From Candidatus Bathyarchaeia archaeon (GTDB taxonomy: Archaea; Thermoproteota; Bathyarchaeia; Bathyarchaeales; Bathycorpusculaceae), in contig JBEKWR010000006.1 of the NCBI GenBank assembly GCA_049512935.1, positions 1 to 64,000 on the forward strand: a DNA stretch of 64,000 nt. Reading direction: 5' to 3'. This document shows positions 36,095-58,694 of the stretch, piece by piece (the stretch's first letter is position 1; each line of letters begins with the position of its first letter). A program made the translations under genes and the position numbers. The notes beneath the pieces are model-generated. The model was not told the DNA's origin and searched no databases. It saw nothing but the letters and a program-made list of their open reading frames with translations.

Positions 36095-36169
36095 TGGAGC
36101 CAGGGGTCGGATTTGCACCGACATAAACAGCTCTGCAGGCCGTCGCTTTCTTTACTCAGCCACCCCGGC
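36095..36169 (-). tRNA. tRNA-Cys(GCA), copy A
   Basis: Cloverleaf: acceptor GCCGGGG/CCCTGGC, anticodon arm ACGGC-CTGCAGA-GCTGT, T-arm GTCGG-TGCAAAT-CCGAC, U73 and encoded CCA. Confidence 0.9.
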
Positions 36170-39654: not shown

Positions 39655-39729
39655 TGGAGCCAGGGGTCAGATTTGCACCGGCGTAAACGGCTCTGCAGGC
39701 CGTCGCTTCCTTTACTCAGCGACCCCGGC
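39655..39729 (-). tRNA. tRNA-Cys(GCA), copy B (T-stem mismatch)
   Basis: Same cloverleaf as copy A; T-stem GCCGG/CTGAC has a C-A mismatch. Confidence 0.8.
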
Positions 39730-45220: not shown

Positions 45221-46159
45221 ATGCCGTTTAAAACCGTAAAGAAGGATGCGGCAGATGCCTTAACGATAGAATGGGGTTTGCAAGTTAAAAATTACAAGTT
45301 AACCCTTGACAAGAAACGCTGCGTCAGCTGCCAAATATGCAGTTTAGCCTGCCCGAAAGAGGCGATAACAGTGCAGAAGCAGCCTAAAGTTGCGGGGGAA
45401 AAAGCCAAAAGAGCCAAAGTCGACGTTGACTTGGCGAAGTGCAATTTCTGCGGAATCTGCGACGTCACATGCCCCTACGGCGCAATCAGGGTTACTTTGA
45501 ACGACAAGCACGAGCTTAACCTTCTGGCGAAGGACAGCTTTCCACAGCTTGTCAGGGACATAAAAGTTGACACGCGCCACTGCACCAAAGAATGCGTCGA
45601 ATGCGAAACAGCCTGTCCCTTAGGGTTGATAACGGTGTCTAAAGTCGGTTTTGACGGCAAACCAGTGGAAAACGTTGATGCCCTGTCGCCGAGCGCTAAA
45701 GACCGCGTTCAGGTTAGCCTCGCCATCAAAAGCGAGTACTGCCCAACTTGCAGGGTGTGCGAGTTCAAATGCAGCCCAGGCACCATAAAAGTCAAGAAAG
45801 CCTACGACGGCGTAATCGCCATCACACAGGAAAAATGCCCAGAAGGCTGCACAGACTGCCTTGACGTTTGCCCAATCCCAGGCGCGCTTGTTCTCGAAGA
45901 AGACAAGAAAGTTCATGTTAACGATTTGTTCTGCACTTACTGCGGCGCATGCAAAAACGTTTGCCCCGTTCCCGAAGCCCTCATGGTTAAACGCACGGCA
46001 ATACACCACACACCCATCCATTCAGGCGCGTGGAACAAAGCCTTAGAAAGATTAACCTCGCCAGCTGACGCGGCTAAAGAGTTCCGAAGCGTGGCTGGTG
46101 AGAGCAGGCGCAAGGCAGTAGGTAAAAGATTCCCAGCCTTTGAGGAGACGGAAAAATGA
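45221..46159 (+). CDS. Polyferredoxin (MvhB/FwdF-like, about six 4Fe-4S motifs)
   Basis: Repeated CxxCxxCxxxCP motifs; directly upstream of hdrA. Confidence 0.9.
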
Positions 46160-46205
46160 GCACATCACAAACTTCCAAAAGATTCAACTTAGAGGAGATA
46201 ATGAA

Positions 46206-48713
46206 ATGAGCAAACCAGAAGCCCCAAAACAACCCGAAACCCAAAAACCAGAAGAACTGCGGATCGGCGTTTTCATCTGCCACTGCGGCATGAACATCGC
46301 AGGAACCGTGGACGTACCATCAGTCGCCGAGTACGCAAGAACCATACCCGACGTAGTCTACGTTAAAGAAAACCGCTACACCTGCGCTGACCCGGGACAA
46401 GAAGAAATCAGAAAAGCAATAAAAGAACAAAAATTGAACCGTGTCGTCGTAGCCGCTTGTAGCCCAAGGATGCATGAGCCAACATTTCGGAAAACCGTAA
46501 GTGAAGCAGGGTTAAATCCCTATGTGTTTGAAATGGCGAACATACGCGAGTTCGCTTCTTGGTGCCATCCCAATGCTCCAAAAGAAGCCACAGCAAAAGC
46601 AAAAGATATCGTAAGGATGGCTGTCGCCAAGGCGAGGCTGCTTAAGCCTCTTGAAACCATGGAGGTTCCTGTAACCAAAAACGCCTTGGTTATCGGCGGC
46701 GGCATTGCCGGCATCAACTCCGCTCTGGATTTGGCGAATATGGGGTTCCAAGTATACCTTGTCGAGAAGAACACGAGCATAGGAGGACACATGGCACAGC
46801 TCGACAAGACTTTTCCGACTTTGGATTGCAGCATATGAATTGAAGGACCTAGGATGGTGGAGGTAAATCGCCATCCTAAGGTCCAAGTAATAACCAATGC
46901 GGACATCCTCAGTGTGGAGGGGTTTGTAGGCAATTTCAAAGTTAAGGTCCGCAAGAACCCAAAGTACGTTGATGCCAAAAAATGTACTGGCTGCGGGGAA
47001 TGCAAAGACGCCTGCCCAATAGAATATCCCAATGAGTGGGATATGAACTTAGGCGTAAGAAAAGCCATCTCCATTCCGTTTGACCAAGCAGTGCCTCTGA
47101 TCTACTCGATAAACAGGGATTACTGCATAGAGTGCTTCAAATGCGTGGATGCCTGTGGTGCGCGTGAAGCCATCAACTTTGACCAAAAGCCCGAAGAAGT
47201 TGAATTGGACGTTGGAGCAATCATTGTAACAACGGGTTGTGACATTTATCTACCATATGATGACGCCACGTACGGCTATGGAAGATACGATAACGTAGTT
47301 ACAGCTTTGGAGTTTGAGAGACTCATCACAGCGGGCGGTCCAACAAGTGGACACGTAGTCCGCTCATCCGATGGAAAGACACCGAAAAGCGTTGCCATCA
47401 TTCAATGCGTCGGTTCAAGGGACGTAAACAAGTACGAATACTGTTCAGGTTTCTGCTGCATGTATGGGCTCAAAGAAGCCATCCTTCTGAAAGAACATTA
47501 CCATGATGACGTGGAAGTCTACATTTTCTACATGGATATGCGCACTCCCGCCAAAGGTTATGAAGAATTCTATCGACGAGCCCGTGAAAAGGGAATTACC
47601 TTCGTCATGGGAAAGCCGTCCCGAATAATGGAAGACCCAAAGACCAAAAATTTGATTATCCGAGCAGAGGACACGAAGCTGGGGCAGCCCATCGAAGTCG
47701 AAGCGGAGATGGTTGTGTTAAGCACAGCCGCCATACCGAGTAAGGGAGCCGAAGAATTGGCCAGCATCCTCCACATAACGCGAGGGTCAGACGGGTTCTT
47801 CATGGAAAGTCACCCGAAACTCAAACCAATGGACACGCCTATGGACGGAGTATTCCTAGCAGGTGCTTGCCAAGGACCAAAGGACATACCCTACAGCGTA
47901 GCCCAAGGAAGCGGCGCGGCTTCAAGAGCTGCCACCATTCTTTCGCAGCCGAAATGGAAGATAGAACCGATTGTCTCCATCGTTGACGTCGCCAAATGCA
48001 GAAACCCGAAAGCAAAGTGCGGTGTATGCGTGAAAAGCTGCCCCTTCGGAGCCATAACCGCGGTTGAGGGGCAACCAGCCCAGATCAACGCAGCTCAGTG
48101 CCATGGCTGCGGAACATGCGTTGCTGAATGCCCACAAGACGCCATAACCCAGATGCACTTTACGGATGAACAAATAACCTCACAAATCAGAGCCGCGCTG
48201 GAAAGGGACCCTGAAGACATTATACTGACGTTTATGTGTAACTGGTGAGGTTACGCCGGCGCGGACCGAGCGGGGACGAGCCGGCTTGAATACCCTCCGA
48301 CGACGAGGGCTATTCGGGTAATGTGCACAGGACGGGTAGACAGAGACTTCGTCATGGAAGCCTTTAGACTGGGAGCCGGAGGCGTATTGATTACCGCCTG
48401 CCATCTTCCCAACGACTGCCACTACATCTCTGGAAACGTCAGGATGAAAGCGCGCATGGATGCCTTAGCTGGCATGCTTCAAAAGCTTGGATTGAGCCCG
48501 CATAGATTCAGGGTTGAGTACGTTTCGTCAGCTGAAGGAGAGAAATTCGTCAGCATCATCAAGGAAATGACTAGTCAAATGCAAGCTTTAGGCAAAGACA
48601 AGATACTCGCGGAAAACGCAAAGCTTCGACCAACCTTAGAGAACATGCTGAAACGCAAAGCAGCCGCCCCAGCCCCTGCAGCTAAACCCGCCGATCAAGC
48701 ACCCGCAAAGTAG
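46206..48713 (+). CDS. hdrA: HdrA-MvhD fusion selenoprotein (835 aa; Sec at residues 211 and 681)
   Basis: Track ORFs 46140.., 46854.. and 48321.. are one frame broken only by TGA at 46836-38 ([18 protein letters not shown]) and 48246-48 (FMCNW-U-GYAGAD). HdrA motifs [30 protein letters not shown]; MvhD motifs MCTGRV, CHY. ATG 46206 has a GGAG RBS. Confidence 0.92.
46845..46884 (+). promoter_or_regulatory. Candidate Sec-recoding hairpin 6 nt 3' of the first UGA
   Basis: GGACCT-AGGATGGTG-loop(GAGGTAAAT)-CGCCATCCT-A-AGGTCC: 15 bp, one G-U, one bulged A. Confidence 0.7.
48255..48285 (+). promoter_or_regulatory. Candidate Sec-recoding hairpin 6 nt 3' of the second UGA
   Basis: GCCGGC/GCCGGC 6-bp GC stem, G-A mismatch, CG/CG, internal loop, CC-GAGC-GG. 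Confidence 0.5.
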
Positions 48714-51424: not shown

Positions 51425-51514
51425 GGCGTCCCACGGCTAGGTGGTCCTAGCATCGGACTTCAAATCCGGTGAGCCCGCAAGGTCTCGGGGTCCGATTCCC
51501 CTTGGACGCCGCCA
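51425..51514 (+). tRNA. selC: tRNA-Sec(UCA), copy 2 (intact 9/4 archaeal-eukaryotic fold)
   Basis: 90 nt. Acceptor GGCGTCCCA/TTGGACGCC (9 bp, one C-U); D-stem GCTAGG-TGGT-CCTAGC; anticodon arm ATCGGA-CTTCAAA-TCCGGT; long variable arm with GCAA loop; T-arm GGGG-TCCGATT-CCCC; G73 and CCA. Confidence 0.95.
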
Positions 51515-52064: not shown

Positions 52065-53396
52065 TCACGTCACTGTTTTCAAAACGGTGTCTAACCTCTC
52101 TGCTGCTGTGGTGATTTCGTTTTTTTGTATTCCTATGCTGGCGTCGAAGTTGATGTAGGATGAGACGTACTGTGGGCAGCACACTCCGAAATCGTTTTTT
52201 TCCAGCGCTCTTGCGCCGTTGACCCTTGCCGCGTACAAGGCTTTGCCTATTTTCTTGGCGTCTCTTCCATCTAGCGTCATAGCCACGGATATTGGATTGT
52301 AAACATTCAGTATTCGCTGTCCGTGCCTCTCCGCCACCGCCTTGAGGGATGATTCAAGGAACCGCCTGTTTTCTTCCTGCTGGGTTCTCAGCTTCTCGTA
52401 CCCGTCTAATCCTATCGACAGTACGGCTGCTAGGAACTGCGCTATGGGAGCGGCTGTTGCCCTTCCCGCGTAGATTTCAGACACGGCGTCTAGGAATTCT
52501 TCGTTGGGCGCGGCGACTATTGCTCCTCCGACTGGGGTTAGGAAATTCTTGTCTGTGCTCTGGATTATGGCGTCCACGCGTCCTGCGTCGATTGCGCCTC
52601 TTACGAGTTTCATGATTTCGCGGCTCTGCACTCCGAAGGCGTTGTTTATGATATGCGGCACTTTCTTCTCCTGTGCGATCTTTGCGATTTCTTTGATTTT
52701 ATCTGGTTCTCTGGGTGAAAAGAAAGTGGTTGTTGACAGAATCGCGGCGGTATTTTCGTTAACTGCTTTTTCTATCTCTTCTGGGGGAACGTTCACTGCG
52801 TCTCCGCAGACTTCTCCTGCCACTATTCTTTCTTGAAGACCTGCAAGATGAATCGCCTTCAGTGGAGTTTTAAGGTCAATCTGTGGGTAAACAACCTCTT
52901 TTCCCCCAGTTTGGTTTCTTGCGGCGCACAAGGCAAGAGCAAGCGTCATTCCTGTTGCCACAGGAAAAACCACCGCCTTCTTGATGTTTGGAACCCCGAA
53001 CCTTTTCATGGCGTCAGTTGCCAATTTGTTAGCGAAATAATACATGAGAGACCCACCTGCCGCCTTAGGCTGGGCTTCGGTCAGGTCACCTGACCTTCCT
53101 ACCCCATGATGAAATCCAAATGCCAGCTTTGAAACCACTGGAGAAGCAACCCTGCCCTCGCGTTCGCCTAAGAAAACTGCTTTGCTGTCCTTGTCCGAAT
53201 CCATTGCAGACAGCAGATTCAGCAGCGTTTCGATTTGGCTGTCTTTCCAGCCTTCTTTTGGTATTCTTCTTTGCTCGAAAAGTAGTTTTATCGACTGGGA
53301 CTCTGTGCCCAGCACTGTCAAGCCCCTTTCAAGTATGCTCTTTGGGATTGTGTCCTTCAACTTATCAAACGGCAACATAAAACATACCTTTAGCAC
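52065..53396 (-). CDS. spcS: O-phosphoseryl-tRNA(Sec) selenium transferase (SepSecS)
   Basis: GEREGRV, HGVGRSGDL..AQPKAAG, PVATGM, HIINNAFG, IQSTDKNFLTPVGG (PLP Lys), YAGRA. Confidence 0.95.
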   Translation of the reverse strand: MLKVCFMLPFDKLKDTIPKSILERGLTVLGTESQSIKLLFEQRRIPKEGWKDSQIETLLNLLSAMDSDKDSKAVFLGEREGRVASPVVSKLAFGFHHGVGRSGDLTEAQPKAAGGSLMYYFANKLATDAMKRFGVPNIKKAVVFPVATGMTLALALCAARNQTGGKEVVYPQIDLKTPLKAIHLAGLQERIVAGEVCGDAVNVPPEEIEKAVNENTAAILSTTTFFSPREPDKIKEIAKIAQEKKVPHIINNAFGVQSREIMKLVRGAIDAGRVDAIIQSTDKNFLTPVGGAIVAAPNEEFLDAVSEIYAGRATAAPIAQFLAAVLSIGLDGYEKLRTQQEENRRFLESSLKAVAERHGQRILNVYNPISVAMTLDGRDAKKIGKALYAARVNGARALEKNDFGVCCPQYVSSYINFDASIGIQKNEITTAAERLDTVLKTVT

Positions 53397-53528
53397 TGTC
53401 GGGCTCCCGATTTGTCTTTCCCTGTATATAAATTGTTAGTTTTGGCATCGTGGAGTCTGACGCGACTTGACTACATTTGCTGGCATTTAGGGGATGCAAC
53501 CACTTGATAAGCCTTAAATAGCGTTCTC

Positions 53529-53771
53529 TTGCACAATAAGTATGCAGTGATGGCAATGGGAAGAATAATAATCATAGATGACGATTCTCCCACAACCAGA
53601 GGAAAATTGATAACTTGCCCGATATGCAATGGTACAGGAAAATGCAAACCTTGTAAAGGTACAGGTACTGTTTGGGATAGAAGAGGTCCTTTTATAACAA
53701 ATAATTGCGAGGGCTGCGGTGGAACTGGTAACTGCCCAAGATGTCACGGTGACCGATACATTAGAGTCTAA
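53529..53771 (+). CDS. Small DnaJ-type CxxCxGxG zinc-finger protein
   Basis: CPICNGTG, CKPCKGTG, CEGCGGTG, CPRCHG. Confidence 0.75.
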   Translation: MHNKYAVMAMGRIIIIDDDSPTTRGKLITCPICNGTGKCKPCKGTGTVWDRRGPFITNNCEGCGGTGNCPRCHGDRYIRV

Positions 53772-53775
53772 CAGG

Positions 53776-53976
53776 AGTGTTGCATTGGCAAAACCTAAAG
53801 TCATCACTCTCGATCAAATGAAAAACGAATTGTCTAAAACTTATTGTGATGTCCATACGTGCAGTCGAATGGCAGAACTTATTTTTAAAACTGAGGATAA
53901 TGAGTTGTGGCTTTGTTTCTGCAAGAATCATGATCCAAGAAACTGGAAACCAGTCTATCCCACATCTAAGAAATAA
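53776..53976 (+). CDS. Small hypothetical Cys/His protein (start approximate)
   Basis: CDVHTC...FCKNH; follows the zinc-finger gene after AGGAG; track ORF 53719..53976. Confidence 0.45.
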   Translation, partial: SVALAKPKVITLDQMKNELSKTYCDVHTCSRMAELIFKTEDNELWLCFCKNHDPRNWKPVYPTSKK

Positions 53977-54127
53977 CTTGTAAATCTCAAAGCTAAACTT
54001 TGATTATCTAAATATTGTTACTTGTTCGTTAATTCAAACAGGCACACCTCCATTAAACGCCTTTGGCGAGCCCGATGCTCGACACAATTATAAACCCAAG
54101 ACGGCATAGACAACTGGGGAAAACAGG

Positions 54128-56323
54128 GTGTCGCAGAGTTATCCTTACCTGCTTATAATGTGCGGATTGCCTAGTTCAGGAAAGACCACCATCAGCAAAA
54201 ACGTCGCCTCCCTGCTTGAGGACAAACACGAGATATCGACCATGGTCATCAGCTCGGACGATTTTCGGGACATGCTCTCGTACAGCTCCAAAGGATTCAA
54301 GCCTGAGCGGGAAGCGTCGGTGAAGGCTCTTTATGAGAAGGCGATTGCAACTGGTTTGGAAGCTGGTTTTCTCGTCATCAGCGATGACTTAAACTACTAC
54401 AAATCGATGAGGAGCGAGCTTAGGCAGATTGCTAAACGGTCAGGCTCCGACTACGACATTGTCTTTGTTGATACACCCGTTGAGGTAGCCGTCAAATGGA
54501 ACCAAGAACGAGGGTCGCCGATACCGCAGTCCCTCATTGAGGAAATCAATCAGAAACTTGACCCGCCCAAAGGCGACTACAAATGGGACACTCCCCTCGC
54601 CGTTGTCGACCCAAGCAAGCAAAGCTTAGAGGGAATCGCCAGTGCCATCGTTACTGCGGTTCTGAAGAGGCTGGAAAACCCGATTAGGTCCAAGCCCAAA
54701 AAAGTTGTGGAAGACGAGAAATCACTGAGGGCAAGAGGCATTGAGCGGGAAACCCGAAAAGCCATGATGGAGGTCATGACGCGGTACAAGAACCCGGACT
54801 TGGGCATTTCTCTTTCCGCCATCAGAAAAGAAGTGGTGCACAAGGCGCTGGCGGACGGCTTGAAGCCTGTAGATGCGGTCGAATTGTTCCTCAGGGAAGC
54901 CAATGCGGTCGCAAAAAGTTACGCCGTGACTGAAGGCAAGGGCCTCATTCCCGTTCATGTGGGTCTTTTCGGGCATGTTGACCACGGCAAGACAATGATT
55001 GCCCGGCAGCTAACTGAGAAACCTTCGACGGCTGCATTGGACAAGGCACCGGACTCCGCCCGCCGTGGAATGACGCTGGACATGGGCTTCTCCGCTTTCA
55101 CCTTAGGTCCGTACCTGGCTACTCTCGTCGACTTGCCGGGGCACTTCAGCTTGGTCAGGCATGCGGTGGCGGGCGCCAACATAATTGACGCGGCGGTGCT
55201 GGTTGTGTCCGCCGACCTCGGATTGCAGGTTCAGAGCGTGGAGCATTTCGCAATAATCAAAGACGTGGGAATAAAGAATCTTGTAGTTGCCCTCAACAAG
55301 GTTGATTTGGCGTCCAAAGAGAGAATTGATGAAGTCAAGACAAAAGTCAAGCTTCTCCTAAAGGGAACTCCATACGAGAACGCAAAGATTGTGGAGGTCT
55401 CAGCCTTAACTGGCAAGGGAATTGATGAACTCAAACGCGCCTTGCAAGATTCCATCAGTCCACCCATTCGCCAGTGGAATGGCCCGTTCAAGATGCCTAT
55501 CGACCACGCATTCACCATAGCCGGAGTAGGAACTGTCTTAACTGGCACGATTCACCGTGGGAAAGTTAAGGTGAAAGACACCGTTGAAATCAAGCCCATC
55601 GACAAAAAAGGTCAAGTGCGTTCGCTGCGGTCATTCGGCGAGGACAAAGAGGAAGCTATCGCTGGAGACAGGGTAGGCGTCGCCGTCAAAGACCTAAAAC
55701 CTGATGACGCTCACAGGGGTTACGTAGCCGTTTCTCCTGGCTCCATCAGTTCTACCCGCCGAGTGATAATCGAGTTGGAAGTGGACAAGTACTATCTGCG
55801 TCCGTTGACGCCGTACAGCGATGTAGATGTGTTTGTTGGGTCTTATGAAGTGCTGGGAAACGTTGTGCCCGGCGCCGTGGAAGACGGCAAGTTCGTTGTG
55901 AAGCCGTCGGTGAAGGCTCCTGAAAAATGCCTAGTTTACATAGAACTCAGACAACAAGTCGTGGCGGAAAGAGGAGACCACATGCTCTTGATGAACCCTG
56001 GACTCCAAGCCCGCGAATTCCGAATAATCGGCGGAGGAAGAATCACTGAGACAGACAGCAAACTGGAATTCTTCTCAAAAAAGACCAAACAGGGAACTGC
56101 AGGACAAAAAAGAGAAGCCGACGAGTACTCAGTGACGGGTCTCTTTGGCACCTCGGAAGCTGCCTCCAAATTCGTGGGAAAACAAGTTGTTACAGCAACG
56201 GGAGTTACAGGCGAAATCAGGGCTTCGCTGTCATTGGGCGAAGTTTCAGTCAAGTTCAAAGAACCCGTGCACGAAGGCGAAAAAGTATTTCTCTACGTCT
56301 ACAAGAAGTTAAAAATCAAATAG
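54128..56323 (+). CDS. selB: Fusion of L-seryl-tRNA(Sec) kinase (PSTK) and Sec-specific elongation factor SelB
   Basis: N-terminal ~270 aa: CGLPSSGKTT, SSDDFR, DDLNYYKSMR, WN.ERG, YKWDTP. C-terminal: GHVDHGKT, RGMTLDMGF, DLPGH, NKVD, PIDHAF, VRSL, FRIIG and a short archaeal-type domain IV. Confidence 0.92.
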   Translation: MSQSYPYLLIMCGLPSSGKTTISKNVASLLEDKHEISTMVISSDDFRDMLSYSSKGFKPEREASVKALYEKAIATGLEAGFLVISDDLNYYKSMRSELRQIAKRSGSDYDIVFVDTPVEVAVKWNQERGSPIPQSLIEEINQKLDPPKGDYKWDTPLAVVDPSKQSLEGIASAIVTAVLKRLENPIRSKPKKVVEDEKSLRARGIERETRKAMMEVMTRYKNPDLGISLSAIRKEVVHKALADGLKPVDAVELFLREANAVAKSYAVTEGKGLIPVHVGLFGHVDHGKTMIARQLTEKPSTAALDKAPDSARRGMTLDMGFSAFTLGPYLATLVDLPGHFSLVRHAVAGANIIDAAVLVVSADLGLQVQSVEHFAIIKDVGIKNLVVALNKVDLASKERIDEVKTKVKLLLKGTPYENAKIVEVSALTGKGIDELKRALQDSISPPIRQWNGPFKMPIDHAFTIAGVGTVLTGTIHRGKVKVKDTVEIKPIDKKGQVRSLRSFGEDKEEAIAGDRVGVAVKDLKPDDAHRGYVAVSPGSISSTRRVIIELEVDKYYLRPLTPYSDVDVFVGSYEVLGNVVPGAVEDGKFVVKPSVKAPEKCLVYIELRQQVVAERGDHMLLMNPGLQAREFRIIGGGRITETDSKLEFFSKKTKQGTAGQKREADEYSVTGLFGTSEAASKFVGKQVVTATGVTGEIRASLSLGEVSVKFKEPVHEGEKVFLYVYKKLKIK

Positions 56324-56549: not shown

Positions 56550-58694
56550 ATGAGGGAAGGAGACATGAACAAAATAACCAAACCAACCACTGTTATCTTA
56601 ACAGTCTCAATCATAATAGTATTATTGGTGTCCCTTGGAACACTAAACATCTCTCGAGCATTTCAAGCATCTGGTTTAAACGCGAACCTTACGCTTTACG
56701 CTTCTGCAGGCGACCAAAACTCCGGAAGTGACACCGCCCAGGTATATGTCACAGGCGGCACTGGGCCACACTTGACTTTCAACTGGTATGTTAACAGTGA
56801 ATATGTTCAAACGAACTATGGCGATTATGCTTCGGTCGGCGATTACGCGTACGGTTATTTTGATTTCGCGTTTTCCTTCTCGGATCTTAACCTCGGCTCA
56901 AACACCATTTCCTGTGAAGTCACGGACAGCGCTTCCAATGAGGTCACGGCGACTGCAGGTTTCTATTTATACCCTCCACTCTCAGTGACCGTTTCACCTA
57001 ACCCTGAAACTGTAGATTCGGGTCAATCTGCCACGTTTACCGCCGATGTATCAGGCGGTTCAGGGTCTTATTCGTACCAGTGGACTTCTCAAAGTGCCGC
57101 GCCAGTTGGTGGTACGACATCTTCAACGCTTACTTGCACCGCCCCAACTGTTGTGCAAACCACTCAATACGCTGTTTATGTAAAGGTGACCGACGCCCTT
57201 CCCGCCTGCGACGGACTCAGCCTCTGTGATTCTTCTCTCACGCCAAACCTCACAGTTAATCCTCTACCAACCGCCACTGTTTCTCCTGCCAGCGCCAATT
57301 TGGCTGTTGGATCAACTCAGCAATTCAGTGTTCTTTCAGCGAGCGGCGGCACAGGGTCGCTGAGTTATGAATGGTACGTCAACAACCATGACCATGGCAC
57401 CGGTTACGATACTGGTGATTCAGGCCCAATTTACTATTACACTGCCGCACCCGACGACGCTACCTTCACACCAAGCGTTTACGTCGAGGTTACTGACAGC
57501 CTCGGTGGAATTGGCGATTCCAACTATGCAAGCGTAAACGTGAACTCCGCTTCTTCTGTCAGTGTTACTGTTTCTCCAGATCCTTGCACTATGTATGTCG
57601 GAGGCACCCAGACTTTCACGGCTTCAGCCACAGGCGGCACGGGATCCTATACTTACGACTGGTATCTCAACGGCGCTGATACTGGACAAACTGGTTCAAC
57701 TTTCGATTATACTGCTCAAGCAGGAGACGTTAACACTCCACCCAGCATTTACGTAGTCGCATGGGACACCAATCTCAATGGTGGGACATCTAACACTCCC
57801 ACCATAACCGTAAATCCTTTCACCGCAATTGTTTCCCCAAGCGCTTGGACCATGGACGTTGGGCAAGTGCAAACATTCACGGCTTCTGTCTACGGCGGTA
57901 CCCCACCGTTCGATATCGAATGGTACGTCAGCAACAGTTTTTATGGTTCCGACGTCAATGTTCAATCAGGAGGAACGTCTTTTGACTACATTGCTCAATC
58001 CCAGGACACCAGCTATCCACCCAGTATTTATGCCATCGTTACTGACAGCAGTACCCCACAGTTACAGGCTACTTCTAACGTGGCGACAATCACAGTGAGC
58101 TTTGGTCCTGTTAACCAGGCGAGCACAGGAGCGAGCGGCACCGTGCAAGGCGGCTCTGTAACGATAGATGAGTCATCAACAACAGGTGTCTCCGCAACCA
58201 TCTCAACTCCCACAGGAACTCCTCTACCGGACGGCACACAGATTGATGTTAACTCAGCGTCTTACGGAAGCACCCCGCCAGCGGAGGTAACTACACCGCC
58301 GCCCATATCTATAACTGGCGGAGGAACGGCGATCTATTATGATGTTTCGGTTTCACAAGGCGGCGGCGCTCCTTTGGGGTCAAACGTTAATGTTCAAGTA
58401 AGCTTTACCGACCCAAGCATCACCAGCTCAAGCACCATAGCGTATTGGGATGCCTCTACTAGCAGTTGGATTCAAGTGACTCCCACAGTCTTCACAGCTC
58501 CCGACACAATATCCGGCAGCATCCCTGCATCCGCTTTAACAGGAACACCCATCGTAGTAGGCTCTCCACAACCTGTTTTCGTCGCACCCGAATACTCCAT
58601 CGGCGCCCTCCTCGCCGTAATCGCATGCTTCGCAGCCTTCATCGCAATTCGCAAACCACACGCCCCCGCCTTGCTAAACCGCAGCAAATACTAA
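56550..58694 (+). CDS. Cell-surface protein with tandem Ig/PKD-like repeats and a PEF-CTERM-like anchor
   Basis: Signal peptide; repeated V.VSP...G..QTFTA...GG.G.Y.Y.WY.N units; C-terminal VAPEY + TM + RK. Confidence 0.8.
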   Translation: MREGDMNKITKPTTVILTVSIIIVLLVSLGTLNISRAFQASGLNANLTLYASAGDQNSGSDTAQVYVTGGTGPHLTFNWYVNSEYVQTNYGDYASVGDYAYGYFDFAFSFSDLNLGSNTISCEVTDSASNEVTATAGFYLYPPLSVTVSPNPETVDSGQSATFTADVSGGSGSYSYQWTSQSAAPVGGTTSSTLTCTAPTVVQTTQYAVYVKVTDALPACDGLSLCDSSLTPNLTVNPLPTATVSPASANLAVGSTQQFSVLSASGGTGSLSYEWYVNNHDHGTGYDTGDSGPIYYYTAAPDDATFTPSVYVEVTDSLGGIGDSNYASVNVNSASSVSVTVSPDPCTMYVGGTQTFTASATGGTGSYTYDWYLNGADTGQTGSTFDYTAQAGDVNTPPSIYVVAWDTNLNGGTSNTPTITVNPFTAIVSPSAWTMDVGQVQTFTASVYGGTPPFDIEWYVSNSFYGSDVNVQSGGTSFDYIAQSQDTSYPPSIYAIVTDSSTPQLQATSNVATITVSFGPVNQASTGASGTVQGGSVTIDESSTTGVSATISTPTGTPLPDGTQIDVNSASYGSTPPAEVTTPPPISITGGGTAIYYDVSVSQGGGAPLGSNVNVQVSFTDPSITSSSTIAYWDASTSSWIQVTPTVFTAPDTISGSIPASALTGTPIVVGSPQPVFVAPEYSIGALLAVIACFAAFIAIRKPHAPALLNRSKY

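What the first reader, a model, noticed from the sequence alone, without database searches (positions are those of the whole stretch)
54128..56323. PSTK-SelB fusion: tRNA-Sec kinase and Sec elongation factor in one 731-aa polypeptide
Seen: one uninterrupted ORF with an N-terminal P-loop kinase carrying PSTK motifs (GLPSSGKTT, DDLNYYKSMR, WDTP, helical C-terminal part). It joins at ...EGKGLIPVHVGLFGHVDHGKT to a translational GTPase with SelB-type pocket residues (DMGF, IDH, VRS). Established: these are separate proteins in Methanococcales and eukaryotes, acting before and after SepSecS. Inference: the fusion could channel tRNA-Sec between charging and delivery, perhaps in a complex with SepSecS. 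I do not know of a described example.
Basis: partly seen in the sequence, partly recalled or inferred. Interest (0 to 1): 0.85.

Follow-up and report, generated by a model that had tools for sequence, protein, structure and literature searches.

The report
Known PSTK–SelB fusion in Bathyarchaeia
One gene of this uncultured archaeon joins the kinase that starts selenocysteine synthesis to the factor that carries selenocysteine to the ribosome; the fusion is real and in use, but it was already described in 2022.

Summary
Window 54128-56323 (+) is one uninterrupted 731-aa ORF. Residues 1-~262 are a full-length PSTK, and residues ~275-731 are a full four-domain archaeal SelB. Contigs from three independent runs cross the junction without indels. 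118 of 120 listed homologues carry both domains.

It is the genome's only PSTK and only SelB. It sits beside tRNA-Sec, SepSecS and an HdrA-MvhD gene with two conserved in-frame TGA codons.

Mukai et al. [quoted passage not shown]

- SepCysS, the enzyme the fusion was proposed to shield against, was found in only 1 of 18 fusion-bearing Bathyarchaeia genomes. The class sample gave 30 of 121.
- All 26 fused PSTK domains fall on one side of one branch.
- The junction is 22 residues long in 48 of 54 sequences.

The functional reason for the fusion remains untested. Novelty: already known.

The parts
54128..56323 (+). PSTK-aSelB fusion gene, 731 aa, GTG start, stop included
   Evidence: Single open frame. 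Both domain sets found. It is the only PSTK and only SelB in the genome. The junction is bridged by independent contigs.
54128..54913 (+). PSTK half, residues 1-262: P-loop kinase domain (about 1-183), flexible internal linker (188-194, low pLDDT), helical C-terminal tRNA-binding domain (197-262)
   Evidence: Aligns to M. jannaschii PSTK 3ADB/3A4L over query residues 6-258 and chain residues 6-245 of about 260, E 7e-28. K19, T20, D44 and R128 match Mj K17, S18, D41 and R120. AF2 helices at 197-220, 223-243 and 247-262.
54893..54949 (+). Junction, residues 256-274: end of the last PSTK helix plus a short coil
   Evidence: Low sequence conservation (0.42) but fixed length. F254-to-H277 spacing is 22 residues in 48 of 54 fused proteins, range 20-23. 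AF2 coil at 263-273; pLDDT is about 68 for residues 261-270.
54950..56320 (+). aSelB half, residues 275-731: GTPase domain, domains II and III, and domain IV
   Evidence: Aligns to M. maripaludis SelB 4AC9 chain residues 20-475, E 4e-75. TIGR00475 is above its cut-off. GHVDHGKT, DLPGH and NKVD are present. D459, H460 and R515 are conserved and match Asp191, His192 and Arg247.
54080..54127 (+). Conserved upstream segment with a TATA-like AATTATAAA and a G-rich stretch before the GTG; likely own promoter and ribosome-binding site (inference)
   Evidence: This is the only part of the 731-nt spacer conserved between the window and genome G187.
52065..53396 (-). SepSecS (O-phosphoseryl-tRNA(Sec) selenium transferase), divergently oriented. 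The real start is probably the ATG at 53378, giving 437 aa.
   Evidence: TIGR03531 scores 483.5 bits against a cut-off of 225. Pfam SepSecS E 2e-116. Most homologues are 437 aa.
51425..51511 (+). tRNA-Sec (anticodon UCA) with discriminator G
   Evidence: ARAGORN. Rfam RF01852 scores 64.5 bits against 47. Sequence read.
46140..48713 (+). HdrA-MvhD (FlpD) fusion selenoprotein gene with two in-frame TGA codons (46836-46838 and 48246-48248); a client of the Sec machinery
   Evidence: 857-aa frame when TGA is read through. FlpD E 5e-45 plus Fer4 and FAD domains. Both TGA codons are kept in 4 of 4 orthologues and are Cys codons in paralogues.

Best explanation
The ORF encodes a genuine bifunctional protein of a Bathyarchaeia archaeon. 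[quoted passage not shown]

Shown here: both halves are full length. Their catalytic and specificity residues are kept across fused homologues down to about 40% identity. The protein is the genome's only PSTK and only SelB. The rest of the pathway (tRNA-Sec, SepSecS, SelD) and a selenoprotein gene with conserved UGA codons are present.

Inferred pathway:
1. SerRS charges tRNA-Sec with serine.
2. The PSTK half phosphorylates it.
3. SepSecS, encoded next door, converts Sep to Sec using selenophosphate from SelD.
4. The SelB half binds Sec-tRNA-Sec with GTP and delivers it to UGA codons, for example in the neighbouring HdrA-MvhD mRNA.

Why the two are fused is inference, and I put it at about 0.4. 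The link would keep the scarce tRNA-Sec in a closed circuit. The PSTK tRNA-binding surfaces would hold the tRNA body beside SelB, so that the first and last handlers are present 1:1 and at high local concentration. Mischarged Ser- or Sep-tRNA-Sec would then rarely escape.

The architecture itself is already published (Mukai et al. 2022). The confidence figure below is for the identity of the protein, not for the reason it is fused.
For: Identity of the two halves:
- Single ORF.
- KTI12/PSTK plus GTP_EFTU, D2 and aSelB_III domains.
- selB model above its cut-off and selen_PSTK the best kinase model.
- Full-length alignment to solved M. jannaschii PSTK and M. maripaludis SelB.
- Among PSTK residues shown by mutagenesis to matter (PMC2275090, abstract and passages), G14, K17, S18, D41 and R120 correspond to G16, K19, T20, D44 and R128. 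G16 is read from the alignment; its conservation was not tallied.
- The aSelB pocket residues Asp191, His192 and Arg247 (PMC3037878, passage) correspond to D459, H460 and R515. In the 54 fused proteins, H460 and R515 are invariant; D459 varies, with at least one sequence carrying Ser.

The fusion is real and the pathway is in use:
- 118 of 120 listed homologues carry both PF08433 and PF00009.
- The junction is bridged by contigs of independent runs with no indels.
- No second PSTK or SelB in the genome. SelD is present.
- tRNA-Sec and SepSecS are adjacent.
- The selenoprotein gene has TGA conserved in 4 of 4 orthologues and Cys codons in paralogues.

Bearing on why it is fused:
- 19 uninterrupted fused ORFs among GTDB species genomes.
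- SepSecS sits next to the fusion in 8 of 9 loci. In the four distant loci it lies directly downstream in the same direction, overlapping the fusion gene's end by one base (1658/1659) in L026.
- Junction length is fixed at 22 residues in 48 of 54 sequences although the sequence varies.
Against: - No biochemical or expression data exist for this protein. No RNA run holds it, which is a blank rather than evidence.
- TIGR03574 scores 145 bits, below its curated cut-off of 290.5.
- The proximal Arg of the RNxxR motif is Trp (W124). This is also the commonest residue in stand-alone homologues (96 of 127), and the R116A mutant keeps most of its activity.
- The two fused activities are not consecutive steps, since SepSecS acts between them. 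Simple two-step channelling therefore cannot be the whole story.
- AF2 gives pTM 0.66 and no fixed inter-half geometry could be read out.
- A fixed linker length among related sequences could be inherited rather than selected.
- Never reverting to split genes may reflect how hard gene fission is, not selection for the fusion.
Confidence: 0.9

Rival explanations
1. The published rationale. The fusion exists to shield Sep-tRNA-Sec from SepCysS in organisms that have the SepRS-SepCysS cysteine route but lack the SepCysE adaptor (Mukai et al. 2022).
For: - Proposed in PMC8762117 and repeated in PMC9499178 (passages).
- The Archaeoglobaceae genome with the fusion (G301) does have SepCysS at 504 bits.
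- One close Bathyarchaeia relative (G306) has it too, at 553 bits.
Against: - This genome is 93% complete. Its best SepRS match is 50 bits against a cut-off of 381, and its best SepCysS match is 39 bits against 365. An ordinary CysRS is present at 509 bits.
- SepCysS was over the cut-off in 0 of 9 fusion-bearing genomes of the class sample, 0 of 4 more and 1 of 5 more. That is 1 of 18 Bathyarchaeia in total.
- The model does detect SepCysS in this class: 30 of 121 sampled genomes, none of them in families f1, f4, f24 or f32 that carry the fusion.
- Caveats: the groups are defined by the feature counted, kin are not independent, completeness of G302-G310 is unknown, and SepRS was searched only in G000.
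Confidence: 0.07
2. Neutral fusion. Loss of the stop codon between adjacent, co-transcribed PSTK and aSelB genes produced a harmless bifunctional protein. It persists because fission is unlikely, and the two halves work independently.
For: - Sifarchaeum has PSTK directly upstream of aSelB in separate frames. A Promethearchaeota-labelled MAG has only one in-frame TGA between them.
- These PSTKs belong to the same larger group as the fused clade.
- The fusion appears to have arisen once: 26 of 26 fused rows lie on one side of a branch, SH-aLRT 98.
- pTM of 0.66 gives no sign of tight packing between the halves.
Against: - The fusion is kept down to about 40% identity and in 19 species-level genomes.
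- It was apparently transferred as a unit to an Archaeoglobaceae genome that nests inside the Bathyarchaeia sequences.
- Junction length is fixed at 22 residues in 48 of 54 sequences, while the internal PSTK linker varies from 21 to 25.
Confidence: 0.3
3. The N-terminal half is a Kti12-like or other P-loop kinase without PSTK activity, for example a tRNA-modification ATPase or a regulator of SelB.
For: - The Pfam family is named KTI12 and covers both Kti12 and PSTK.
- The PSTK equivalog cut-off is not reached.
- W124 stands in place of the proximal Arg.
Against: - The only KTI12-family chains found in the PDB at E <= 0.001 are M. jannaschii PSTK. The other 13 hits are APS kinases, Pnkp1 and designed proteins.
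- The C-terminal tRNA-binding domain is present.
- It is the only KTI12-family gene in a genome that has tRNA-Sec, SepSecS, SelD and selenoprotein genes, so another PSTK would otherwise be missing.
- Its nearest stand-alone relatives include Asgard PSTKs that sit next to aSelB.
Confidence: 0.03
4. Assembly or gene-calling artefact that merges two neighbouring genes.
For: - Two related assemblies do show frameshifts inside the gene (L035 = G232, and L037).
Against: - Contigs of X2, X3 and X4, and of X1, cross the junction with no gaps.
- 116 of 120 listed clusters from JGI, ENA, NCBI and Logan are 683-741 aa long.
- 19 uninterrupted ORFs in other genomes.
Confidence: 0.01

Closest known systems
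PSTK-aSelB fusion of Bathyarchaeota and one Archaeoglobus species (Mukai et al., Front Genet 2022, PMC8762117; review PMC9499178)
   Same: Same architecture, same lineage and the same kind of gene cluster: tRNA-Sec, SepSecS, the fusion and a selenoprotein gene. The nearest named homologues are Bathyarchaeota or Bathyarchaeia MAGs. This window is a member of that described class.
   Different: The paper links the fusion to SepRS-SepCysS without SepCysE. This genome has neither SepRS nor SepCysS. Only 1 of 18 fusion-bearing Bathyarchaeia genomes searched has SepCysS. I could not see the paper's supplementary figures, which may list which Bathyarchaeota have SepCysS.
Methanocaldococcus jannaschii PSTK (PDB 3ADB, 3A4L)
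   Same: Alignment over the whole enzyme, including the C-terminal domain. The P-loop, the Walker B Asp and the distal Arg are kept.
   Different: It is a stand-alone protein; the solved chains are 259-260 residues. The proximal Arg116 is Trp124 here, which is the commoner state among homologues. Identity was not printed; the score is 101 bits, E 7e-28.
Methanococcus maripaludis aSelB (PDB 4AC9)
   Same: Four-domain alignment over chain residues 20-475. GTPase motifs and the Asp191/His192/Arg247 pocket are kept.
   Different: It is a stand-alone protein with no N-terminal kinase.
Adjacent or stop-separated PSTK and aSelB genes of Sifarchaeia (mentioned in PMC8762117)
   Same: Same gene order, PSTK then aSelB. 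The PSTKs belong to the same larger group in the tree.
   Different: These are separate frames (Sifarchaeum, L047) or a single in-frame TGA (L044), not one ORF.
Transsulfursome (SepRS-SepCysE-SepCysS) and transamidosome
   Same: They work in a similar way. Enzymes of an indirect aminoacyl-tRNA route are held together so that the mischarged tRNA is not released (described in PMC8762117).
   Different: Those are non-covalent complexes of consecutive enzymes. Here the first and last handlers are joined covalently and the middle enzyme is separate. No complex has been shown.
CysNC/NodQ (EF-Tu-like GTPase fused to APS kinase)
   Same: A translational-type GTPase and a P-loop kinase in one chain. 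NF004035 gives a weak hit.
   Different: The domain order is reversed, and the score is 91 bits against a cut-off of 715. It is a sulfate-activation enzyme. This protein is not a member.

Membership tests
PSTK (L-seryl-tRNA(Sec) kinase; TIGR03574, Pfam PF08433) | P-loop GxP(G/A)xGK(S/T) (PMC2275090) | tested here: met
   GLPSSGKT at residues 13-20. G13, P15, G18 and K19 are invariant in 54 fused proteins. The fourth position is S, C or A rather than G or A.
PSTK (L-seryl-tRNA(Sec) kinase; TIGR03574, Pfam PF08433) | Walker B Asp (Mj D41) | tested here: met
   D44 aligns with D41. It is D in 7 of 8 fused and 114 of 127 stand-alone homologues.
PSTK (L-seryl-tRNA(Sec) kinase; TIGR03574, Pfam PF08433) | RNxxR motif (Mj R116, R120) | tested here: inconclusive
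   The sequence here is W124-N-Q-E-R128. The distal Arg, whose loss has the more severe effect, is invariant. The proximal Arg is Trp, as in 96 of 127 stand-alone homologues; 21 of 127 have Arg.
PSTK (L-seryl-tRNA(Sec) kinase; TIGR03574, Pfam PF08433) | C-terminal tRNA-binding domain after a flexible linker | tested here: met
   The alignment to MjPSTK runs to chain residue 245 of about 260. AF2 gives three helices at 197-262 after a low-pLDDT stretch at 188-194. T209 and R210 are invariant.
PSTK (L-seryl-tRNA(Sec) kinase; TIGR03574, Pfam PF08433) | Score above the curated family cut-off | tested here: inconclusive
   Pfam KTI12 scores 126 bits against 22, which is met. NCBIfam TIGR03574 scores 145 bits against 290.5, which is not met.
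PSTK (L-seryl-tRNA(Sec) kinase; TIGR03574, Pfam PF08433) | Co-occurrence with SepSecS and tRNA-Sec | tested here: met
   SepSecS and tRNA-Sec lie within 3 kb. SepSecS is adjacent in 8 of 9 loci.
PSTK (L-seryl-tRNA(Sec) kinase; TIGR03574, Pfam PF08433) | Phosphorylates Ser-tRNA(Sec) | not testable with these tools
   Needs an enzyme assay.
Archaeal SelB (TIGR00475) | Score above the curated cut-off | tested here: met
   280.5 bits against 242.25.
Archaeal SelB (TIGR00475) | Intact GTPase motifs G1, G3 and G4. This distinguishes aSelB from the aSelB-like proteins, whose G domain is less conserved than domains II and III (PMC3037878). | tested here: met
   GHVDHGKT, DLPGH and NKVD are present. 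G282, H283, G287, K288, T289, P337, G338 and K391 are invariant in 54 sequences; D393 is at 90% or more.
Archaeal SelB (TIGR00475) | Aminoacyl pocket Asp191/His192/Arg247 (M. maripaludis numbering) | tested here: met
   These correspond to D459, H460 and R515 by the 4AC9 alignment, whose chain numbering is offset by 14. In the 54 fused proteins, H460 and R515 are invariant; D459 varies, with at least one sequence carrying Ser. Residue roles are from PMC3037878.
Archaeal SelB (TIGR00475) | Four domains including domain IV | tested here: met
   The alignment to 4AC9 runs to chain residue 475 of 482. aSelB_III scores 25.8 bits against 19. eEFSec_4th scores only 19 against 27.
Archaeal SelB (TIGR00475) | Binds Sec-tRNA(Sec) and decodes UGA | not testable with these tools
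   Indirect support only: selenoprotein genes with conserved TGA codons.
PSTK-aSelB fusion class (Mukai et al. 2022) | Both activities in one ORF | tested here: met
PSTK-aSelB fusion class (Mukai et al. 2022) | Common descent with the other fused genes | tested here: met
   Fused PSTK domains lie on one side of a branch: 20 of 20 (SH-aLRT 98), 22 of 22 (100) and 26 of 26 (98). These are quick trees rooted at the midpoint only.
PSTK-aSelB fusion class (Mukai et al. 2022) | Associated SepRS-SepCysS system lacking SepCysE (the proposed functional context) | tested here: not met
   No SepRS or SepCysS in this genome. SepCysS was found in 1 of 18 fusion-bearing Bathyarchaeia genomes. This is a proposed context, not a structural criterion, so membership by architecture stands.
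CysNC bifunctional sulfate adenylyltransferase subunit 1/APS kinase (NF004035) | GTPase at the N terminus, APS kinase at the C terminus, score above cut-off | tested here: not met
   91 bits against 715, and the domain order is reversed.

The most novel reading that the evidence does not exclude
The fusion does not guard against SepCysS. Instead it acts as a dedicated tRNA-Sec carrier. The PSTK half would stay on the body of tRNA-Sec through SepSecS action and hand-over to the SelB half, and perhaps up to the ribosome. This would give SelB a second, tRNA-specific identity check and would let Ser-tRNA-Sec be re-phosphorylated on the spot. That would make it a covalent minimal 'selenosome' in a lineage with no known SECIS-binding protein. 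The evidence here does not exclude this: 17 of 18 fusion-bearing Bathyarchaeia genomes lack SepCysS, the junction length is fixed, and SepSecS is adjacent to the fusion in 8 of 9 loci, overlapping its end by one base in L026.
Probability: 0.2. Interest if true: 0.6.

Novelty: already known. Interest (0 to 1): 0.3.

Why it matters
PSTK and SelB handle tRNA-Sec at the start and at the end of the archaeal and eukaryotic selenocysteine route. A natural covalent link between them suggests the route may run as an assembly, which has long been suspected but not shown for PSTK, SepSecS and SelB.

The architecture is already in print, so this window adds a member rather than a discovery. The useful new point is negative. 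The one published reason for the fusion, protection from SepCysS, does not fit most genomes that carry it, so its function is still open. The fused protein is a compact, naturally tethered reagent for structural work on tRNA-Sec hand-over.

Tried and rejected
- Complex prediction with SepSecS (alignment A3) and the PSTK half (A2, residues 1-272) scored 0.00 and 0.00 against a mark of 0.32. The verdict was 'no answer' and the controls were not run. This is not evidence either way.
- Expression: no RNA holder is listed among the 24 runs. This is a blank only.
- SECIS search: the 147 nt after the HdrA-MvhD stop fold no better than shuffles (z 0.62). Rfam found only the three tRNAs at gathering threshold. 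I did not pursue a comparative SECIS search.
- Inter-half geometry: AF2 gave mean pLDDT 86.2 and pTM 0.66, but no PAE or coordinates are returned. I could not say whether the halves pack. No fold search was run.
- RNxxR anomaly: I first took W124 for a deviation from PSTK. One search showed Trp is the majority state, so I dropped the idea.
- The small ORFs between SepSecS and the fusion are 53529-53771 (DUF7895, zinc-ribbon-like) and 53719-53976. I rejected them as conserved cluster members. They have no tblastn match in eight related loci, and the spacer is not conserved in the same-genus genome G187.
- Cluster names gave almost no taxonomy.
- Literature searches for an experimental study of the fusion found only the two 2022 papers. 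No biochemical work is in the searchable library. Subscription journals and supplements were not visible.
- SepCysE was not searched, because I had no family accession for it.
- In one search only the top-ranked matches were listed (497 were not). Weak stand-alone PSTK hits in the class sample could therefore have been missed.
Full report
OBSERVATION. The window holds one uninterrupted ORF at 54128-56323 on the + strand, with a GTG start and 731 codons. Pfam finds KTI12 at 8-220 (E 2e-36), GTP_EFTU at 277-443, GTP_EFTU_D2 at 468-533 and aSelB_III at 550-641. NCBIfam places the C-terminal part in selB (TIGR00475, 280.5 bits, cut-off 242). Its best kinase model is selen_PSTK (TIGR03574, 145 bits over residues 8-240), which is below that model's cut-off of 290.5.

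BOTH HALVES ARE COMPLETE. Residues 6-258 align with the solved M. jannaschii PSTK (3ADB, 3A4L) over chain residues 6-245 of about 260, so the helical C-terminal domain is included (E 7e-28). The only KTI12-family chains among the 15 PDB hits are PSTK. Residues 276-722 align with M. maripaludis SelB (4AC9) over chain residues 20-475 (E 4e-75).

The PSTK residues shown by mutagenesis to matter are G14, K17, S18, D41, R116 and R120 (PMC2275090, abstract and passages). Here they correspond to G16, K19, T20, D44, W124 and R128. Trp at the R116 position is not an anomaly. It is the state in 96 of 127 stand-alone homologues, against 21 with Arg. R116A is also the mildest of the mutants that lost activity in that paper.

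The aSelB aminoacyl pocket is formed by Asp191, His192 and Arg247 (PMC3037878, passage). These correspond to D459, H460 and R515. In an alignment of 54 fused proteins reaching down to 40% identity, the following are invariant: G13, P15, G18, K19, D86, D87, N89, Y90, R95, W124, R128, W153, D154, T209, R210, the G1 motif, P337, G338, K391, H460 and R515. AlphaFold2 on that alignment gives mean pLDDT 86.2 and pTM 0.66. Low confidence is confined to 188-194 (the PSTK inter-domain linker) and 301-317 (switch I). The last PSTK helix spans 247-262, followed by a coil at 263-273 before the first GTPase strand.

NOT AN ARTEFACT. Logan contigs of four runs were laid on 54400-55500. X1 may be the source sample. 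Records from X1 (54580-55155, 0 differences), X2 (54825-55500, 0), X4 (54774-54991, 0; and 54821-55500 with 30 substitutions and 0 gaps) and X3 (54774-54977, 18 substitutions, 0 gaps) bridge the junction. No indels or joints are listed. Of the 120 best clusters in the 5.8-billion-protein collection, 118 carry both PF08433 and PF00009, and 116 are 683-741 aa long. They come from JGI, ENA, NCBI and Logan assemblies and reach down to 41% identity.

CONTEXT.
- The fusion is the genome's only SelB. The other hits are EF-1-alpha- or eIF2-gamma-like at 35-38% identity.
- It is also the only convincing KTI12-family gene.
- tRNA-Sec lies at 51425-51511.
- SepSecS lies at 52065-53396 on the opposite strand (TIGR03531, 483.5 bits).
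- SelD is present elsewhere in the genome (234 bits).
- Three kb upstream of tRNA-Sec, 46140-48713 reads as an 857-aa HdrA-MvhD fusion if two TGA codons are read through.
- Both TGA codons are TGA in 4 of 4 orthologues in related genomes. They are TGT or TGC in paralogous and distant copies. This is the usual Sec/Cys signature, so the machinery is in use.

IT IS ALREADY DESCRIBED. Mukai et al., Front Genet 2022 (PMC8762117; passages of section 3.4.1, the Fig. [quoted passage not shown] They propose that the fusion protects Sep-tRNA-Sec from SepCysS where SepCysE is missing. The review PMC9499178 repeats this. The phrases 'PSTK-SelB' and 'PSTK-aSelB' each occur in exactly one paper of the library. 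I found no experimental study. The nearest named homologues are Bathyarchaeota or Bathyarchaeia MAGs, so this window is a member of that published class.

DISTRIBUTION AND ORIGIN. In a sample of 301 genomes of the class, a match covering both halves appears in 9: G000, G187, G217, G229, G232 (in two pieces), G103, G110, G037 and G220. That includes only 2 of 15 genomes in the window's own genus. Sec use is therefore rare and patchy.

A scan of GTDB species genomes returned 23 loci with both halves contiguous:
- 19 are uninterrupted fused ORFs. Sixteen are labelled Bathyarchaeota or Bathyarchaeia. One is labelled Limnocylindrales and one Nanoarchaeia, at 84-87% identity, so they are probably mis-binned. 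One is Archaeoglobaceae.
- 2 carry frameshifts.
- 1 has a single in-frame TGA between the halves. It is a Promethearchaeota-labelled MAG.
- 1 has adjacent genes in different frames (Sifarchaeum).

A search of 1.84 billion representatives with the PSTK half found 25 hits below 1e-30. At or below E 1e-45 the listed hits are seven fused proteins of 704-737 aa (three also seen), a 189-aa fragment and one 263-aa stand-alone PSTK. Below that the hits are 250-320-aa stand-alone proteins.

In quick maximum-likelihood trees of the PSTK domain, all fused rows fall on one side of one branch:
- 20 of 20, SH-aLRT 98 (two fused rows were left out by my pattern).
- 22 of 22, SH-aLRT 100 (stand-alone rows were reduced by hand to 34).
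- 26 of 26, SH-aLRT 98.

The Archaeoglobaceae sequence nests among Bathyarchaeia sequences, which suggests transfer of the fused gene. The Sifarchaeum and TGA-separated PSTKs form a neighbouring clade. A single fusion from an adjacent PSTK-aSelB pair is therefore not rejected. The trees are rooted at the midpoint only.

TEST OF THE PUBLISHED RATIONALE. This genome is 93% complete. Its best SepRS match is 50 bits (cut-off 381) and its best SepCysS match is 39 bits (cut-off 365). It has an ordinary CysRS at 509 bits.

SepCysS over the cut-off was found as follows:
- 0 of the 9 fusion-bearing genomes of the class sample.
- 0 of 4 further fusion-bearing Bathyarchaeia genomes.
- 1 of 5 more (G306).
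- In total, 1 of 18.

The model does work in this class. It is over the cut-off in 30 of 121 sampled genomes, none of them in the families that carry the fusion. The Archaeoglobaceae genome does have SepCysS (504 bits), as Mukai et al. reported.

Caveats:
- The groups are defined by the feature counted.
- Kin are not independent.
- Completeness of G302-G310 is unknown.
- SepRS was searched only in G000.
- SepCysE was not searched.

Even so, shielding from SepCysS cannot explain why the fusion is kept in most Bathyarchaeia that have it.

HOW IT MOST LIKELY WORKS. It is shown here that the protein is a bifunctional PSTK-aSelB within a complete, used Sec pathway. The rest is inference.

The two activities are the first and the last protein handlers of tRNA-Sec after SerRS, and SepSecS acts between them. 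The link therefore cannot be simple two-step channelling. Three observations suggest more than a neutral accident:
- The spacing between F254 and H277 is 22 residues in 48 of 54 sequences (range 20-23) although the sequence there is poorly conserved. The PSTK internal linker varies from 21 to 25.
- SepSecS lies next to the fusion in 8 of 9 loci. In the four distant lineages it follows directly in the same direction, overlapping the fusion gene's end by one base (1658/1659) in L026.
- The fused state is never reversed within the clade.

My preferred reading, at about 0.4, is a tRNA-Sec holding device. The PSTK surfaces keep the tRNA body near SelB, so both handlers are present 1:1 and Ser- or Sep-tRNA-Sec rarely escapes. 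A neutral fusion is at about 0.3. Shielding from SepCysS in this organism is at about 0.07.

A complex prediction of SepSecS with the PSTK half gave no answer and counts for nothing.

VERDICT. The interpretation as a PSTK-SelB fusion is supported, but the novelty claim is not. The finding is a well-preserved member of a class described in 2022 whose function is still untested.

Noticed in passing
window 46140-48713 (+): HdrA-MvhD (FlpD) fusion gene with two in-frame TGA codons (U233 in DCSIU, U703 in CNWUGY). It is a double selenoprotein. Orthologues keep both TGA codons and paralogues have Cys codons. No SECIS-like hairpin stood out in the 3' region.
   Followed up: partly
window 51425-51511 (+): The tRNA-Sec has a 9-bp acceptor stem with a C:U mismatch at the eighth pair, which I take to be position 6:67 in the usual tRNA-Sec numbering (recalled). 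That is where eukaryotes have U6:U67 (per the review read). It also has a 6-bp D stem with a 4-nt loop, like eukaryotic and unlike typical archaeal tRNA-Sec per the same review.
   Followed up: partly
L044:2034-3992 (Promethearchaeota-labelled MAG): PSTK and aSelB lie in the same frame, separated by a single TGA in the linker (U264 when read through). In a Sec-decoding organism this could be a plain stop between two genes. It could also be a recoded site giving some fused protein. Mukai et al. mention stop-split ORFs in Sifarchaeia.
   Followed up: partly
L035 (= G232:C14) and L037: The fused gene is broken by one frameshift (L035) or two (L037) in otherwise 90-95% identical relatives. These are either assembly indels or decaying genes.
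   Followed up: no
G306 (genome of L028), C11:19846-20946: This is the only fusion-bearing Bathyarchaeia genome of 18 with a SepCysS over the cut-off (553 bits). The genome is 3.1 Mb against 2.3 Mb for G000, so bin contamination is possible.
   Followed up: no
L030, L033; protein P0121: Fused genes 84-87% identical to the window sit in bins labelled 'Limnocylindrales bacterium' and 'Nanoarchaeia archaeon'. A 44%-identical fused protein (over the PSTK half) is in a 'Methanotrichaceae' bin on a 2.6-kb contig. These are probably mis-binned contigs.
   Followed up: no
window 53397-54127: The 731-nt spacer between SepSecS and the fusion is unrelated to that of the same-genus genome G187, except for the last ~50 nt (TATA-like AATTATAAA). 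In the window it holds two small ORFs, one a CxxC zinc-ribbon (DUF7895) protein at 53529-53771, with no match in eight related loci.
   Followed up: partly
window 36095-36169 and 39655-39729 (-): Two tRNA-Cys(GCA) genes lie 3.5 kb apart in a genome with CysRS and no SepRS or SepCysS.
   Followed up: no
window 52065-53396 (-): The SepSecS ORF as listed starts at a GTG. Most homologues are 437 aa, which points to the ATG six codons downstream (53378). The closest non-Bathyarchaeia SepSecS relatives, at 57-60% identity, are named Asgard: Jordarchaeales, Freyarchaeum and Helarchaeota.
   Followed up: no
window 56550-58694 (+): A 714-aa Thr/Ser-rich protein with an N-terminal and a C-terminal hydrophobic segment and Ig-like repeats lies directly downstream of the fusion. 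It has no tblastn match in the eight related loci.
   Followed up: no
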